Below, one piece after another: positions 47,501 through 62,500 of a stretch of DNA of 64,000 nucleotides. The position numbers are program-made. The first letter of the stretch is position 1, and the number at the start of each line of letters is the position of its first letter. Location: NCBI RefSeq assembly GCF_056712565.1, contig NZ_CM160072.1; one strand, given 5' to 3'.

Positions 47501-50500
47501 CGCTGGGGGTGATTGGCGTGATTTATGAAGCGCGCCCGAACGTGACGGTTGATGTTGCTTCCCTGTGCCTGAAAACCGGTAACGCGGTGATCCTGCGCGG
47601 CGGCAAAGAAACCTGTCGCACTAACGCTGCAACGGTAGCGGTGATTCAGGACGCCCTGAAATCCTGCGGCTTACCGGCGGGTGCCGTGCAGGCAATTGAT
47701 AATCCTGACCGTGCGCTGGTCAGTGAAATGCTGCGTATGGATAAATACATCGACATGCTGATCCCGCGCGGTGGGGCTGGTTTGCATAAACTGTGCCGCG
47801 AGCAGTCGACAATCCCGGTGATCACAGGCGGTATAGGCGTATGCCATATTTACGTTGATGAAAGTGCAGAGATCGCTGAAGCCCTGAAAGTAATTGTCAA
47901 CGCGAAAACTCAGCGACCGAGCACATGTAATACGGTAGAAACGTTGCTGGTAAATAAAAACATCGCAGATAGCTTCCTGCCCGCATTAAGCAAACAAATG
48001 GCGGAAAGCGGCGTGACGTTACACGCTGATGCAGCCGCGCTGGCGCAGTTGCAGGCAGGCCCCGCGAAGGTGGTGGCTGTTAAAGCCGAAGAGTATGACG
48101 ATGAGTTTCTGTCATTAGATTTGAACGTCAAAATCGTTAGCGATCTGGATGACGCCATTGCCCATATTCGTGAACACGGCACGCAACACTCCGATGCGAT
48201 CCTGACCCGCGATATGCGCAACGCCCAGCGTTTTGTTAACGAAGTGGATTCCTCCGCTGTTTACGTTAACGCCTCTACGCGTTTTACCGACGGCGGCCAG
48301 TTTGGTCTGGGGGCGGAAGTTGCGGTAAGCACACAAAAACTCCACGCGCGCGGCCCAATGGGGCTGGAAGCTCTGACCACTTACAAGTGGATCGGCATTG
48401 GTGATTACACCATTCGTGCGTAAATAAAACCGGGTGATGCAAAAGTAGCCATTTGATTCACAAGGCCATTGACGCATCGCCCGGTTAGTTTTAACCTTGT
48501 CCACCGTGATTCACGTTCGTGAACATGTCCTTTCAGGGCCGATATAGCTCAGTTGGTAGAGCAGCGCATTCGTAATGCGAAGGTCGTAGGTTCGACTCCT
48601 ATTATCGGCACCATCAAGAAAATCAATAACTTAGCTTAACTTCTCTAAGAAATTGTATCTTCTGTTATCACTTACAAACGCCTATACGTTGTTATGGGCT
48701 TTGGTAGTTTAACACGTATGGGCGAGTAGTTCCCAGGCTCAACCTCGTAACAAGTTCCTTTGAAGCTGGAAGACGTGCCACCGTCTCTAAACCTTCTACC
48801 AAAACTCTTAGCAAGATGTTCCACACCTGGCGCGGTGTCCAATGATGCTACACGTCGTGAGACGTTGCAGAGGATAAACAGGCTAAATGATGGGAAGAGT
48901 TTTAAGTGCAATAGTGGATTAAAGCCCACCTCTTCAAAACCTAACTTGATCGGGAAAGAATCAAGCTCTAGCACGGTTTCGTCCACCGGAGTACAACGGG
49001 TGCCTGATAAGAGAAGAACTGCTAAGACTTCATAGCTTTTGTGAAAAAGCCCTTTTTAGTGGATACGCCTACGGCGCTTATTTTTTGGTATAACCATCAA
49101 AGGCGCTTTATGGCTCCTATTGTCTTGAAAATGTATCTTTACTTGTATTGTGTTTTATGCGTAGTCTCCCTGTGTAGTATGTAACTTGTTAATTTTCATA
49201 TGAATACAGAGGCAACACGATGAAAAACATTGCAGCTATAAAACGTAATAACCGCAAGATTCACGCTCGTAAGTTCCTGTCTACGCCAGAGGGAAAAGCC
49301 TGGCTAGAGCGAAAGCAACGAGAGAACGAAGAAAGAAAACTCCTTAGTGAGTTGAAATGGCTTAGAGAGGATTTCTGAAAATCTCCAGAACGCAACAAGA
49401 CGCATTCTAACGCTGTTTTCATTGCTTGGTATAGGGATGTATATGTGATGTGTGTTTAATGCGTCTGTGAGCTTGTTTTGTGCCTTATTTTGCATTTTCA
49501 TAATGCAGAAGAGAACACGGAAAACCTTAAAATTAATTATTGGGGTATTTAAGGCTATTTTAAGGGGATTTAAGGGTATTAAACTTGATTTAATTGATTA
49601 AAATATAAACAGATAGCTCTGCATCTTATTGATTTATAAGGTTATTTTTGAATAAAGGTAAATAAAAAATAAATAGCCATAAATAGCTATAAATAGCTAT
49701 AAATACATCTAAATACATATGAATCCCCTCCCTTATGGCTAGATTGCGAGAGGTGCTTAACGCGATTTTTAGCGCCCCCCGATCTGGAAAATCCAGAATC
49801 CCCAAATATCAAGGAGGCATTACGCCTCCTCTTCTTCCTTCTTAATTCGCTGTACCGTTGAAGGAGCAACATTAAAGCTCTCGGCGGTTTTACGCACTGA
49901 CACGCCAGCGGAAAGGGCTTTCTTTATACCTTCCCTATCTACTGCCTTCCCTTTACCACGCTTTGTAGGATTGACGGCTTGCGCTTCTCGTTTACGCTCT
50001 AACATCAGTTCACGTTCACACGTTGCAACTGCCGACAACATCGTAAGCATCATCTTTCCCATCGCGCTTGTAATGTCAGCAATGATTCCTTCTTTGTGAA
50101 ATCGAACAATTACACCTCGATTATTAAGTTGTTCCACTAAGGCAAGAATGTCTAAGGTGTTACGCCCTAAACGATCAAGAGAGTGGACGTGTAAGGTGTC
50201 GCCTTCTCTCAGATAGGATAAACACGCCTGCAATCCTGGACGGTTAGTGTCTTTACCTGACAGCTTATCTTCAAAGACTTTATCAAGCGTTACTCCTGCA
50301 AGCTGGCGATCAGTGTTCTGATCTACAGTGCTCACACGCTTATAACCGATATTGCTCATAAAATCCTCTTAATGTATCGATTTGGCACTACTTCAATGCA
50401 AATGAGTATATCGTATTCATTTGGTCTGTTTCAAGCCTTATAGGTACGGAATATTACACGATTTAGATGTATTCATTTGGTATGCCTAATGGATACACAG

Positions 50501-59500: not shown

Positions 59501-62500
59501 AAGAGTGCAGGGGTGAACGGGAACAGAAGATCATTAGCTATAGACTACTTGAATCAGATTATGGACAGTAGACAGCCTTTTCTTCTTGTTACAGAAAATA
59601 AAACTTTTGAGAACGTTGTTTTAACAGGCATCGAATACACAGAAGAGGCAAGCGAATCCCTGGTATTTGATCTTAGCTTTGAGCAAATAAGATTAGTGTC
59701 TTATGGCACAGTAAACACTGTAGCTATCAAAACACAGCCATCTAAGAACATCGGGGCTAATATGAAAAAACGTGTTAACACTGAAAAATCAAGTAGTGAA
59801 GGTGAAGACACTATTACTCCTGCCTTTAAACAGGAATAGCCGTAAATGCCTCTAAAACGCTCTGTAACGATGTAATTATAAAAGAGGCTCAATCTATGTT
59901 GAAGCCTCTTTATTGCGTCTATGGCGTTGTTTTACGCCTTAAATTTGATTTTTTATTGATTGATAAGCCTTTCTCTATTTCAGGGTAGCGTAGAAGCTCA
60001 ATATATTTTTTAAGCTCTACTGGAGAAGCTGCATTCTTGCTATATGTGCGGAATGTCTCTGTATTGCCGCGTGTATGGCCCAGGAGAAGGGCGATCCTGT
60101 CTTCTGGAATTTGATTTCGATCAAGAAGCTGTGCTACTCCGTGTCTCAGAGAATGAAACACCTTCCTTTCTGTTCCCTTTTCCCCTAAAGCCTTTCGTTT
60201 AGCTCTTGTAAATCTCTGCGTGTGCCACGTGGAACGTTTACCATCAGCACGCTCTGTAATGCTGGCGTGATAGAACAAAAAGCCATTGTGAGGCTTTTCA
60301 CGCAGCGACAACACCAACGGAGTGATAAGGCTATGTACAGGCACAACACGTGCCGCAGCTTTCGTCTTTCCCTGTGTGATTTCAAAACACAGCACACCTT
60401 CGATCTCTTTCACATCGTCTATTGTGAGACTTGCTATCTCATTGATCCGCATACCTGTATAAGCACCGATAAGACACAAAGCCATCATTTCTTTGTTTTC
60501 TGCTGAATTACCGGAAAATACTTGCAACACCTGCAATAGCTCTTTGTTAGAAAATGCCTCGTAGCTCTCTCTACTTTGTGCCACATCAAGCCTATGCCCT
60601 CGCCAGGGGGAGAGCGCCCTTTCTGGCGCATCGTGGTAACGTGATGAAGCTAACTCCCATAGCTGGGCCATTGGGCTGATATAATTTGCAATTGATTGTT
60701 GTGAAAGGGTTTTTTGCATGTGTTCAATCCAGCCTGTAACAGTGGTGCGGCTCACATCTTGCAATGCAATATCAGGCTTTTTACGGTAGGAGAGAAACAT
60801 CTCTACCGCTTTTCTTGCCTTAGCTAAAGTGGCTGGCTTCTTCTTCGTGCTGTTAATTGTCAGGTAGATTTCAAGAATTTTAAGCAATGACGGACACGAA
60901 GACGCTGTATCTTGCATTCTGGTAGCTGTTTTGGCGTATTTAGCCTTACTGCGTAACAGCTCCAGCGTGTTCTCTATTGTGCTGTTTACAGGGGCGACAC
61001 TCTCCCGTAGACAATGGTACTCATCTGCAATCTGATCACGCTTTCTACGTGCAACACGAAGGTTACTTGTATGTAGACTCCTGACAAACGTCCTTTTTCC
61101 TTCAAAAAAGGGCTGCATATACACAGGCAGCGTGATCCGTAAATAGTAGTTACCGTAAGAATCACAGATTATGTATTGATTGGGCTTGTATCTCATAAAC
61201 TCCCCGGCTAAAGTGTCGGAGCGTTTGTAATGTGAAAATTGATTGTAACGCATAGAAAATGATAATTTTTTCTATAAGATTCAATCAATTAGTAATGGTC
61301 GTAGGTGATGGCATTAACACGAGATTAATCGAGTGTTTTACTCCTATTATCGGCACCATTCTAACGTCTCCCCAAGTCTACTCAAGTATTTAAAAACCTC
61401 TTATAATCAGTATATTAATGCCCCTTTTAGTCTTTTGACGTCTATTTAAGTACCCCAAACTCTACAAGCAATTGAGGGGATTTGCTGTTCAGTTTAGTGG
61501 AGATACCCCCAAGTGAAACTCAATGCCCGTCAAATAGACACTGCCAAGCCAAAAGAGAAGGCTTACAAGTTGGCTGATGGTGGTGGTCTGTACCTCCTGG
61601 TAAAACCTGGTGGAGGAGAATATTGGCGTCTCAAGTATCGTGTAGCTGGTAAAGAGAAGCTGTTAGCACTAGGTGTGTATCCTGAGGTCACCTTAGCTGA
61701 TGCTCCTGCAAAACTTGAAGAAGCTAAAAGAGGTATCTCTGGGGGAATCGATCTGATGGAAGTGAAGCGAGAGGAAAAGATTGCCCGGGAAACGCAGTTA
61801 AACAACACCTTCAAAGATATTGCCCTTGAGTGGCACAGTAACAAATTATAATCACAATAATAGTGTATATAATTATACATTGTATGCTTGGTAATCATAT
61901 AATGATAAAAGCTTCCGATAATCAGTATGAGATTTGTCCTTAAACTCCTGGACATGCTTTTCTAAATCTTCCAATGGTATATGTCCATTTATACAAATAA
62001 AATTCTAGTGATAAATACCTTCAGGTATGATTAGACAACATCTTTATTCGATGGGGGTTAATCTATATTTGATATCTTTCTTTTAAATAACAACGCCATT
62101 AAAAACGCTTTGTTTAATGACGTTTTTTTATTGTTTCCTATATAAAGCCTAACCAGCATAAACATTGGTGGCTCTTATGCTCATTGTAATTAAATGAGAG
62201 TGTGATTAATGTCTTTATATATTCTGGTAGTTATTCTCTCCAGAAGAATACATTGTAAGAAGATGACTGTTAGTATGTTTTAACATCAATTAACATTAAG
62301 GTTTGATAATAATTTTTTGTTGGCGAGTTCAAATGTTTTCATTTCATCATCTGATAGCCCGCTCCAGATTTTCTTTAGCATTACATTTTGAGTGTTTATT
62401 AGTTTTTGAGCAAGTGTAACTCCGTCAGGGGTTAAGCAAATACTTTTGCTTCGACGATCGTTTTTATTATTAATTCTTTTGGCAATATTCTTTTTTTCTA

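What the first reader, a model, noticed from the sequence alone, without database searches (positions are those of the whole stretch)
48595..61358. Uncharacterised ~12.7 kb integrative element at tRNA-Thr (thrW)
The tRNA 3' end (actcctattatcggcacca, 48595-48613) recurs exactly at 61340-61358, bounding an AT-rich element. It contains a serine recombinase (49820-50359, minus), a 2.2 kb iteron-rich non-coding region, a single plus-strand operon of about 12 genes with strong RBSs (52752-59839) and a tyrosine integrase at the end distal to the tRNA (59919-61196, minus). None of the operon proteins has a family I can name, and no terminase, portal, primase, helicase or Walker-A ATPase is visible. 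The layout (integrase, origin-like iterons, small DNA-binding proteins, a few structural-looking proteins) does not fit P4, classical PICI or a complete prophage, so this may be a new kind of satellite, integrative plasmid-like replicon or defence-carrying island.
Basis: partly seen in the sequence, partly recalled or inferred. Interest (0 to 1): 0.85.

Follow-up and report, generated by a model that had tools for sequence, protein, structure and literature searches.

The report
Predicted satellite of phi92-like coliphages

Summary
An exact 19-bp direct repeat of the tRNA-Thr 3' end bounds a 12.7 kb AT-rich element, and the listed genes are all there.

It is not uncharacterised. It belongs to the ~13 kb "putative E. 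coli phage satellites" predicted by Barth, Dunham & Seed (2023, PMC10448857), which encode RepA_N initiator, decoration protein, major capsid protein, tape measure, baseplate protein and tyrosine integrase. [quoted passage not shown] No experiments exist.

The operon proteins can be named:
- an iteron-binding RepA-like initiator;
- a decoration-like protein;
- an HK97-type capsid protein;
- a tape measure protein;
- a tail-tube initiator 61% identical to phi92 gp135.

What I add:
- A single-copy 53-bp motif (49758-49810) copies the sequence that ends at the boundary of the helper's direct terminal repeat. Sister elements carry an alternative cassette copying the Phapecoctavirus boundary.
- Iteron type co-varies with RepA N-domain type.
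- Some satellites match the phage nuclease's second DNA-binding domain.
- The structural cluster occurs in 627 of 5426 complete E. coli genomes, at three or more attachment sites.

Verdict: the family is already known and only predicted. Helper-dependent packaging is likely but unproven.

The parts
48538..48613 (+). tRNA-Thr(CGT), thrW; integration target
   Evidence: ARAGORN; Rfam tRNA 71.8 bits
48595..48613 (+). attL core (19 bp, 3' end of the tRNA)
   Evidence: Exact repeat, 0 expected by chance
49220..49378 (+). 52-aa conserved ORF (WP_000788777), function unknown
   Evidence: Annotated in L001 and present in most family loci; no family hit
49543..49718 (.). Short tandem repeats (GGGTATTTAA x3.7; ATAAATAGCT x3.7) next to the packaging-site mimic
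   Evidence: TRF; role unknown. A possible terminase or accessory-protein binding site; this is inference.
49758..49810 (-). Mimic of the helper's DTR end, GATATTTG-N38-CGCGTTA. The similarity continues to 49744, past the position that corresponds to the phage DTR boundary (49758|49757). Candidate terminase recognition/cleavage site.
   Evidence: 39/40 identical to phi92 318-357, spanning the annotated DTR end at 343. Single copy in every family locus that has it. Alternative cassette in L010/L014/L033/L034 matches the Phapecoctavirus DTR boundary.
49820..50359 (-). Small serine recombinase (resolvase/invertase type, 179 aa)
   Evidence: phrog_125 DNA invertase 6e-55; PF00239 Resolvase. Too small to be a large serine integrase. 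Likely multimer resolution or inversion (inference).
50947..51585 (.). Iteron array plus AT-rich tracts; candidate origin of replication
   Evidence: The dominant iteron co-varies with the RepA N-domain type across 22 loci.
52611..52639 (+). Promoter-like site P1 (TTGACA-17-TG-AATAAT, 11/12)
   Evidence: consensus match only
52752..52934 (+). 60-aa ORF, function unknown; under purifying selection
   Evidence: dN/dS 0.18 against L009; no family
52957..53124 (+). 55-aa ORF, identical over 53 aa to phage Inny gene 185, which lies just upstream of the phage nuclease gene
   Evidence: tblastn 100%/53 aa; DNA 98-99.6% identical to Inny/Muut
53176..53829 (+). RepA-like replication initiator (N-terminal winged-helix 'RepA_N'/HTH_36, type A)
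   Evidence: phrog_270/391 replication initiation. HTH_36 is borderline (E = 0.0011). First ~85 residues almost identical (83% over 119 aa) to domain 1 of Mt1B1_P17 QNJ49226.
53841..54116 (+). 91-aa ORF, function unknown
   Evidence: no family
54249..54656 (+). 135-aa ORF, function unknown
   Evidence: No Pfam/PHROG/NCBIfam/PADLOC hit
54658..54993 (+). 111-aa ORF; only weak coiled-coil-type hits
   Evidence: A scaffold-like role is speculation.
55022..55050 (+). Promoter-like site P2 (TTGACA-17-TAATAT, extended -10)
55339..55551 (+). 70-aa ORF, function unknown
55548..55910 (+). Capsid decoration-like protein (120 aa)
   Evidence: AF2 model pLDDT 66. Best PDB fold hits are ~123-aa chains in the Bas63, Sf14 and PhiTE capsid reconstructions, which I take to be decoration proteins (prob 0.96-1.0, TM 0.42-0.57). 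Labelled 'Dec' by Barth et al.. No BLASTP similarity to phi92 gp123.
55929..56957 (+). Major capsid protein (HK97 fold, Phage_cap_E), 342 aa
   Evidence: phrog_29 1e-13; PF03864; PDB phi92 gp124 2e-6 full length and Pakpunavirus P7-1 MCP 8e-10; dN/dS 0.14
56975..57008 (+). Intrinsic-terminator-like hairpin after the capsid gene
57045..57248 (+). 67-aa ORF in the position of a tail-assembly chaperone; function unknown
   Evidence: Very widespread identical sequence; no similarity to phi92 gp133
57263..59092 (+). Tape measure protein, 609 aa (helper's is 659-662 aa)
   Evidence: phrog_16051 3e-53; PDB phi92 gp134 3e-38. First 30 aa are 25/30 identical to gp134, the rest 27%.
59126..59839 (+). 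Tail-tube initiator (Dit-like), 237 aa
   Evidence: 61% identical to phi92 gp135; PF21821 Dit_like; PDB 'tube initiator' 9cuy_K and 7yfz_a
59919..61196 (-). Tyrosine integrase (DUF6538 + Phage_integrase)
   Evidence: phrog_1 4e-33; Pfam
61340..61358 (+). attR core

Best explanation
The element is a member of the putative E. coli phage-satellite family of Barth et al. 2023. It is an integrative parasite of virulent ~148 kb phi92-like myoviruses (Stephanstirmvirinae: Justusliebigvirus and Phapecoctavirus).

Proposed cycle, with each step marked as shown or inferred:
1. It sits at thrW, placed there by its tyrosine integrase (att sites shown).
2. On infection by a helper it excises (inferred; trigger unknown).
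3. Its RepA-like winged-helix initiator binds the cognate iterons in the 50.9-51.6 kb array and starts replication. It uses host or phage replisome proteins, because the element has no helicase, primase or polymerase (iteron/RepA covariation shown; activity inferred).
4. It makes its own capsid protein and decoration protein, which would build a shell sized for 12.7 kb. It also makes its own tape measure and tail-tube initiator, which feed into the helper's tail pathway through helper-like N-termini. Portal, protease, scaffold, terminase, tube, sheath, baseplate and fibres must come from the helper (gene content shown; assembly inferred).
5. The helper terminase recognises the 53-bp copy of the phage's direct-terminal-repeat end and packages satellite DNA (sequence mimicry and cassette swapping shown; cleavage inferred).
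6. Helpers fight back with an Odn-like nuclease (two RepA_N domains plus a MUG113/T5orf172-type domain). Its DNA-binding domains are near-copies of satellite RepA N-domains, and satellites escape by swapping RepA_N and iteron modules (domain identity shown; cleavage inferred by analogy with ICP1 Odn and PLE).
For: Family identity: the gene set, size and att type match the description in PMC10448857. The first ~85 RepA residues are almost identical (83% over 119 aa) to domain 1 of the Mt1B1_P17 nuclease.

Helper link:
- The tube initiator is 61% identical to phi92 gp135. The tape measure is 27-30% identical to gp134, with 25/30 identical N-terminal residues and the same TMP-then-initiator gene order. 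The capsid protein aligns full-length to gp124.
- The 55-aa ORF is 100% identical to Inny gp185, and the DNA is 98-99.6% identical to Inny/Muut.

Packaging signal:
- Window 49744-49783 is 39/40 identical to phi92 318-357, which straddles the annotated DTR end at 343.
- The motif GATATTTG-N37/38-CGCGTTA ends within 1 nt of the DTR end in phi92, BI-EHEC and Mt1B1_P17, and is single-copy in 29 of the 31 family loci scanned.
- L010, L014, L033 and L034 carry a replacement cassette that matches the Phapecoctavirus DTR boundary instead. In L014, L033 and L034 the flanks are 94-99% identical to the window's.

Replication: ACAGAATTCTGT occurs 3 or more times in 4/4 loci with type-A RepA and at most once in 18/18 other loci. 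Other RepA types have other dominant iterons. That iteron is absent from the whole Mt1B1_P17 and Inny genomes.

The phage protein has HTH_36 x2 plus MUG113/T5orf172 and matches phrog_681 endonuclease.

Functional constraint: dN/dS is 0.14-0.22 for MCP, Dec, TMP and Dit between sub-lineages. The structural cluster is in 627/5426 complete E. coli genomes, at thrW, glyU and a lysR-type gene, with different integrases.
Against: - There is no experimental evidence anywhere for excision, replication, packaging or transfer. The only paper is computational.
- Only one DTR boundary is mimicked. I found no copy of the other boundary, so how unit-length DNA with proper ends would form is open.
- The capsid protein is only ~22% identical to the helper's, so compatibility with the helper's portal, scaffold and protease is unproven.
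- The two promoters look like strong constitutive sigma70 sites, and I identified no repressor or inducer.
- I found no stand-alone virome contig. All 12 IMG/VR loci lie within contigs of 19.6-76.3 kb, longer than the element, and their identifiers look like isolate-genome ids. The 12.1 kb Logan contig still contains both att flanks.
- The tape measure is only ~50 residues shorter than the helper's, so any effect on tail length would be small.
Confidence: 0.75

Rival explanations
1. It is a defence island that does not transfer. The diverged capsid, tape-measure and tube-initiator homologues act as poison or decoy subunits that spoil helper virion assembly, and the DTR-end copy titrates the phage terminase.
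For: The helper-like N-termini on otherwise diverged TMP and Dit are what a dominant-negative subunit would need. Assembly-interference defences exist (titles and abstracts of PMC11364771 and PMC10884400). Constitutive-looking promoters. Phages carry a dedicated counter-nuclease, so the element clearly harms them.
Against: A pure defence island does not need an integrase with att sites at three loci, a RepA/iteron replicon that is swapped under nuclease pressure, a full-length capsid protein with a decoration protein under purifying selection, or helper-genus-specific swaps of the packaging cassette. No PADLOC family hits among the 10 of 15 ORFs tested. Interference and transfer are not exclusive; PLE does both.
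Confidence: 0.12
2. It is a decayed remnant of a complete prophage or of a phi92-like genome.
For: It carries phage structural genes and an integrase. PGAP labels only a few of its genes.
Against: phi92-like phages are about 145-154 kb, and I found no integrase annotated in the Inny or Mt1B1_P17 records; that they are virulent is from the literature. The same compact 12-13 kb architecture with intact ORFs recurs in hundreds of genomes at three att sites. dN/dS is far below 1. The structural proteins are 22-61% identical to the phage's, so they are not recent fragments.
Confidence: 0.02
3. It is an integrative, plasmid-like replicon or a satellite of some other, unsampled helper, and the similarities to phi92-like phages are leftovers of occasional recombination.
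For: The capsid protein's best sequence matches are Pseudomonas Pakpunavirus MCPs, not phi92's. The iterons are not found in the phages.
Against: Five independent features all point to Stephanstirmvirinae: Dit, TMP, the 55-aa ORF, the RepA_N/nuclease pairing and the DTR-end cassette. The cassette tracks two genera of that subfamily. There are no conjugation or partition genes.
Confidence: 0.08

Closest known systems
Putative E. coli phage satellites of Barth, Dunham & Seed 2023 (NAR Genom Bioinform 5:lqad076; PMC10448857, Fig. 8)
   Same: Same family. About 13 kb, att-flanked, tyrosine integrase beside a tRNA. Encodes Dec, MCP, TMP, a baseplate protein and a modular RepA_N initiator that matches the Odn-like nucleases of Inny, Muut and Mt1B1_P17. 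This element has the Mt1B1_P17-type RepA_N.
   Different: Nothing essential. The paper does not report the DTR-end mimic, the iteron covariation, the 55-aa shared gene, or satellite cognates of the nuclease's second RepA_N domain. It states that none were detectable, but L019 and L033 have one (91% over 93 aa). The paper treats the serine recombinase as alternative integration machinery. Here it is a 179-aa resolvase/invertase-type protein that coexists with the tyrosine integrase.
[quoted passage not shown]
   Same: A satellite of a virulent myovirus. RepA_N initiator with an iteron origin. The phage counter-nuclease (Odn) has a RepA_N domain copied from the satellite, and the replicon module is swapped to escape it (PMC8263062, listed; summarised).
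   Different: From my own knowledge, PLE integrates with a large serine recombinase and uses the helper's coat protein with its own external scaffold (TcaP). It has no capsid, tape-measure or tube-initiator gene. I saw no sequence relationship outside the RepA_N fold.
Capsid-forming PICIs (cf-PICIs)
   Same: A satellite that encodes its own major capsid protein.
   Different: Lacks small terminase, portal, prohead protease, head-tail adaptors, AlpA and Pri-Rep (also stated). Has tail genes (TMP, tube initiator) that cf-PICIs lack.
SaPIbov5 Ccm (satellite-encoded capsid-protein homologue that redirects capsid size)
   Same: A satellite-encoded homologue of the helper's capsid protein (PMC8569155 abstract). 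This is a precedent for the MCP acting with helper head proteins.
   Different: Ccm co-assembles with the helper's own capsid protein. Here the MCP is only 22% identical to the helper's and comes with its own decoration protein, which suggests a shell made wholly of satellite protein. Untested.
P4-like satellites
   Same: About 11-13 kb, integrate at tRNA genes in E. coli, and carry a copy of the helper's packaging site (cos in P4).
   Different: No alpha primase-helicase, Sid, Psu, Delta or cos. The helper is a virulent DTR-type myovirus, not a P2-like temperate phage.

Membership tests
Barth et al. 2023 putative E. coli satellites | RepA_N-domain protein without a nuclease domain, near-identical in DNA to the RepA_N domain of an Inny/Muut/Mt1B1_P17 RepA_N-T5orf172 protein | tested here: met
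   89% DNA identity to Mt1B1_P17 and 95% to BI-EHEC. 83% protein identity over 119 aa, and the first ~85 residues are almost identical. No nuclease domain.
Barth et al. 2023 putative E. coli satellites | About 13 kb unit bounded by repeated attachment sites, tyrosine integrase at one end, next to a tRNA (or in lysR) | tested here: met
   12,726 bp between 19-bp repeats at tRNA-Thr; integrase at 59919-61196
Barth et al. 2023 putative E. coli satellites | Encodes Dec, MCP, TMP and a baseplate component but lacks terminase, protease, portal and most tail genes | tested here: met
Phage satellite (general definition) | Carries the helper's packaging recognition sequence | tested here: met
   The 53-bp motif ends at the position of the helper's DTR boundary. 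It is single-copy and swapped in step with helper genus. This shows sequence mimicry only; function is not shown.
Phage satellite (general definition) | Helper-dependent induction, replication, packaging and transfer | not testable with these tools
   Needs infection experiments. No virome-derived stand-alone contig found.
PLE | RepA_N initiator with a cognate iteron origin, targeted by a phage RepA_N-nuclease chimera | tested here: met
PLE | Large serine recombinase integrase; no capsid gene (uses the helper's coat with the TcaP scaffold) | tested here: not met
   Tyrosine integrase plus a small 179-aa resolvase-type recombinase; own MCP
cf-PICI | Full head module (MCP, portal, protease, adaptors), small terminase, AlpA, Pri-Rep | tested here: not met
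   Only MCP and Dec are present; none of the others hit in PHROGs or NCBIfam
P4-like | Alpha primase-helicase, Sid/Psu/Delta, cos site of a P2-like helper | tested here: not met
   No such families; phage matches are limited to Stephanstirmvirinae
Classical PICI | Int - Stl/AlpA - Pri-Rep - packaging-redirection (TerS or Rpp) layout | tested here: not met
   No AlpA, primase, TerS or Rpp hits

The most novel reading that the evidence does not exclude
This would be the first satellite shown to remodel both ends of a virulent myovirus. It would build a small shell from its own capsid and decoration proteins. It would seed tails with its own tape measure and tube initiator, about 50 residues shorter than the helper's and so roughly two tube rings shorter. 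It would be packaged by a DTR-type terminase through a one-sided copy of the terminal-repeat boundary. That copy is exchanged as a cassette to switch between helper genera, and the replicon is exchanged to dodge a two-headed phage nuclease.
Probability: 0.3. Interest if true: 0.8.

Novelty: already known. Interest (0 to 1): 0.4.

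Why it matters
If these elements work as predicted, they are the E. coli counterpart of the V. cholerae PLE-ICP1 system, in a far more tractable host.

- They are common. The structural cluster is in 627 of 5426 complete E. 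coli genomes, and relatives occur in Citrobacter, Klebsiella and Kluyvera.
- Their presumed helpers, phi92-like and phAPEC8-like phages, are candidates for therapy and biocontrol against APEC, UPEC and ESBL E. coli. Carriage could therefore decide whether such phages work on a given strain.
- The DTR-end mimic gives a specific 53-bp target for testing how this phage group recognises its genome ends.
- A satellite-encoded tape measure and tube initiator would be a new way for a satellite to use or sabotage tail assembly.

Tried and rejected
1. Iterons as mimics of a phage origin. The type-A iteron and the other iteron words are absent from the complete Inny and Mt1B1_P17 genomes, and the 2.4 kb non-coding region has no meaningful phage match. 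The phage domain therefore targets satellite DNA, not phage DNA.
2. An invertible segment controlled by the serine recombinase. A 16-bp inverted repeat (15/16) at 49699-49714 and 50461-50476 flanks the gene and the packaging motif, but it is not conserved in L033. Dropped.
3. A copy of the other DTR boundary. None found.
4. Stand-alone packaged or circular forms in public data. All 12 IMG/VR loci lie within contigs of 19.6-76.3 kb, longer than the element, and their identifiers look like isolate-genome ids. Logan contigs of 11-12 kb are assembly fragments that still include the att flanks.
5. Defence cargo. No PADLOC hit among the 10 ORFs tested.
6. Non-coding RNA. Rfam finds only the tRNA.
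7. Direct sequence homology of the 120-aa and 67-aa ORFs to phi92 gp123 and gp133. None by BLASTP. Only the fold search supports 'Dec'.
8. Pfam on the 120-, 135- and 111-aa proteins. Nothing.
9. Literature searches for satellites of Stephanstirmvirinae under several word sets found nothing. The Odn lead then turned up the Barth paper.

Full report
**1. Observation**

ARAGORN finds one tRNA in the window, tRNA-Thr(CGT), at 48538-48613. Its last 19 bases recur exactly at 61340-61358, and none of 100 shuffles gives a second copy. GC is 0.32-0.47 between the repeats and 0.53-0.56 in proBA upstream.

The 50360-52750 stretch has no convincing ORF and is packed with repeats:
- ACAGAATTCTGT, four exact copies, three of them in a 23-bp array at 51443-51526;
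- three copies of ACCTAGGAAATGAGTTCCTACCT;
- GTAACG..GTTAC palindromes;
- two AT-rich tracts.

The gene row is not one plain operon. There are two strong sigma70-like sites (52611-52639 and 55022-55050) and a terminator-like hairpin after the capsid gene.

**2. What the genes are**

| Coordinates | Assignment | Evidence |
|---|---|---|
| 49820-50359(-) | Small resolvase/invertase-type serine recombinase | |
| 53176-53829 | Winged-helix replication-initiator-like protein | |
| 55929-56957 | HK97-type major capsid protein: PF03864; full-length alignment to phi92 gp124; best PDB match is the Pakpunavirus P7-1 capsid protein | |
| 57263-59092 | Tape measure protein: phrog_16051; phi92 gp134 at 3e-38 | |
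| 59126-59839 | Dit-like tail-tube initiator, 61% identical to phi92 gp135 | |
| 59919-61196(-) | Tyrosine integrase | |
| 55548-55910 | Decoration-like protein. The AF2 model has modest confidence (pLDDT 66). Its best fold matches are the ~123-aa chains in the Bas63, Sf14 and PhiTE capsid reconstructions, which I take to be decoration proteins | |

Six small ORFs remain unnamed. Terminase, portal, protease, sheath, tube, helicase and primase are all absent.

**3. The element is a recurrent unit, not a remnant**

- The whole element is 100% identical in E. coli GPEC548. A match covering at least 80% of it is present in 192 of 5426 complete genomes, at about 94-100% identity among the best 25 hits.
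- The capsid/tape-measure/initiator cluster is detectable in 627 genomes.
- The same architecture occurs at thrW, at glyU beside ETT2, and inside a lysR-type gene, each with its own integrase.
- Homologues of the 120-aa protein occur in Citrobacter, Klebsiella, Kluyvera and E. albertii.
- Between two sub-lineages, dN/dS is 0.14 (MCP), 0.16 (Dec), 0.17 (initiator) and 0.22 (TMP).

**4. Link to phi92-like phages**

Against 50,697 phage records, essentially all matches are to ~145-151 kb Stephanstirmvirinae. I fetched whole-genome sequence for phages Inny and Mt1B1_P17 and compared every element ORF with them (then 24 and 75):
- The 55-aa ORF is 100% identical over 53 aa to Inny gp185.
- RepA is homologous to the next phage gene (Inny gp184, Mt1B1_P17 QNJ49226).
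- MCP is 22% identical, TMP 25-30% and the initiator 55-61%.
- TMP and initiator are adjacent in the same order as phi92 gp134 and gp135.
- The TMP is a mosaic. Its first 30 residues are 25/30 identical to gp134, the rest 27%, and it is about 50 residues shorter: 609 aa against 659 aa.

**5. A copy of the helper's genome end (apparently not reported before)**

A 40-bp stretch just downstream of the recombinase gene (49744-49783, minus strand) is 39/40 identical to phi92 318-357. The phi92 record annotates a 343-bp direct terminal repeat, so the match straddles the repeat's inner boundary.

The alignment extends to a 53-bp motif, GATATTTG-N37/38-CGCGTTA. In phages this motif ends within 1 nt of the DTR end: at 343 in phi92, and at 328 in BI-EHEC and Mt1B1_P17, whose ends I compared directly.

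The motif occurs once in each of 29 of the 31 satellite loci I scanned. L011 and L022 show none in the DNA I held.

Four loci (L010, L014, L033, L034) carry a different cassette in the place of window 49374-49796. In L014, L033 and L034 the flanks are 94-99% identical to the window's. That cassette matches the Phapecoctavirus DTR boundary: 81 nt, of which 52 are inside the repeat and 29 outside. L019 is a hybrid of the two cassette types.

All four combinations of structural-gene lineage and cassette type exist. A random 40-bp match would span a given boundary of a 148 kb genome with probability of order 10^-3 to 10^-4 (my rough estimate, not a computed value), and here it happens for two cassettes and two phage genera. 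I therefore read this as a terminase recognition or cleavage site. No copy of the other DTR boundary was found.

**6. Replicon and arms race**

Elements that are otherwise 94-98% identical carry at least five unrelated RepA N-terminal domains:
- Type A (this window) equals domain 1 of the Mt1B1_P17 protein: 83% over 119 aa, with the first ~85 residues almost identical.
- Type C equals domain 1 of Inny gp184.
- Type D (L019, L033) is 91% identical over 93 aa to the conserved second domain of the phage protein.

The phage proteins have two HTH_36 winged helices followed by a MUG113/T5orf172-type domain that matches phrog_681 'endonuclease'.

The dominant iteron follows the RepA type. ACAGAATTCTGT is present three or more times in 4/4 type-A loci and at most once in 18/18 others. 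Type B loci favour TAGGTCAYWGTGA, and type E loci favour ACCCCTATCA. The type-A iteron is absent from the entire Mt1B1_P17 and Inny genomes. The phage's type-A domain therefore has its target on the satellite, as expected for an origin-directed nuclease.

**7. Prior knowledge**

Following the Odn analogy, I found Barth, Dunham & Seed 2023 (PMC10448857). Starting from the RepA_N-T5orf172 proteins of Inny, Muut and Mt1B1_P17, they identified 224 '~13 kb putative E. coli phage satellites'. These are flanked by att sites next to tRNAs or in lysR, and encode Dec, MCP, TMP, a baseplate protein, an integrase and a modular RepA. The authors proposed that the phage proteins are Odn-like anti-satellite nucleases.

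The window's element is a member of that family. The work is purely computational, and I found no follow-up. The paper does not mention the DTR-end mimic, the iteron covariation or the shared 55-aa gene. It says the second RepA_N domain has no detectable satellite cognate, and the L019/L033 result changes that.

**8. Mechanism and rivals**

The best-supported model is a helper-dependent satellite:
- integration and excision by the tyrosine integrase;
- RepA/iteron replication using borrowed replisome parts;
- a shell made from its own MCP and Dec, sized for 12.7 kb;
- its own TMP and tube initiator entering the helper's tail pathway;
- packaging by the helper terminase at the DTR-end mimic;
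- phage counter-attack by the nuclease, and satellite escape by module swapping.

Shown here are gene content, homologies, att sites, motif mimicry and swapping, covariation and selection. Every biochemical step is inferred.

The main rival is a non-transferring defence island whose structural homologues poison assembly. It explains the helper-like termini, but not the replicon, the integrases, or the cassette that tracks helper genus. Interference and transfer may well coexist, as in PLE. A prophage remnant and an unrelated helper are both poorly supported.

**9. Verdict**

The novelty class is 'already known', as a predicted and untested family. Interest is moderate. The system is attractive and common, and the packaging-site mimic makes it directly testable, but a specialist who knows the 2023 paper would not be surprised by the element itself.

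Noticed in passing
window 61359-64000: Directly after attR lies the thrW-associated vat island: an integrase Arm-domain fragment (61513-61851), a MarR-type regulator (62286-62810, minus) and the 3' end of vat. It is 100% identical to E. coli ATCC 11775, NU14 and others. The satellite therefore sits in tandem with another thrW island. The flank differs from GPEC548 (paoD), although the element itself is identical.
   Followed up: partly
L019:4143-4195; L010, L014, L033, L034: The DTR-end cassette exists in a phi92 type and a Phapecoctavirus type, and L019 carries a recombinant of the two (…GGGGGGCGCTGATCTTCGCGTTA). Cassette type is independent of the structural-gene lineage and of RepA type.
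   Followed up: yes
L019 and L033 (repA at L033:6038-6772): These satellites have a RepA N-domain 91% identical over 93 aa to the second, conserved RepA_N domain of the Inny nuclease. The 2023 paper reported no satellite cognate for that domain.
   Followed up: yes
L011 (E. coli PM4-5, glyU): A variant family member lacks the tube-initiator gene. At the tRNA-proximal end it carries a DUF4145 protein and a small 192-aa tyrosine recombinase in place of the serine recombinase. No DTR-end motif was found in the DNA I held for it.
   Followed up: partly
window 49699-49714 and 50461-50476: A 16-bp inverted repeat (15/16) brackets the serine recombinase gene and the packaging motif, which recalls a Hin-type invertible segment. 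It is not conserved in L033.
   Followed up: partly
window 52474-52527: A short non-coding stretch upstream of promoter P1 gives marginal matches (E 4e-4 to 6e-2) to non-coding DNA of other large phages (records of about 103-212 kb, mostly Salmonella and Escherichia phages of 105-114 kb), including the annotated left terminal repeat of Pectobacterium phage My1, and to Klebsiella phages KP13-26 and KP2025. Meaning unknown.
   Followed up: no
phage records MG065639, MG065645, MG065656, MG065689, MG065650: Records named 'Campylobacter phage' (A150, A145, C3, A110a, B15; about 146-151 kb) behave in every search like phi92-like or phAPEC8-like coliphages. They are probably mislabelled or contaminated.
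   Followed up: no
L042 (Logan ERR10419791 contig, 12,139 bp): A contig found in four samples consists of just the element, from 7 nt before the attL core to 33 nt past the attR core. This is consistent with an assembly break at the island borders and is not proof of excision. This copy lacks the serine recombinase gene.
   Followed up: yes
window 57263-57352 and 59156-59230: The N-termini of the tape measure (25/30 residues) and of the tube initiator (23/24 residues for aa 11-34) are almost identical to the phi92 proteins, while the rest is 27% and about 55% identical. This points either to constrained docking surfaces or to recent recombination.
   Followed up: partly
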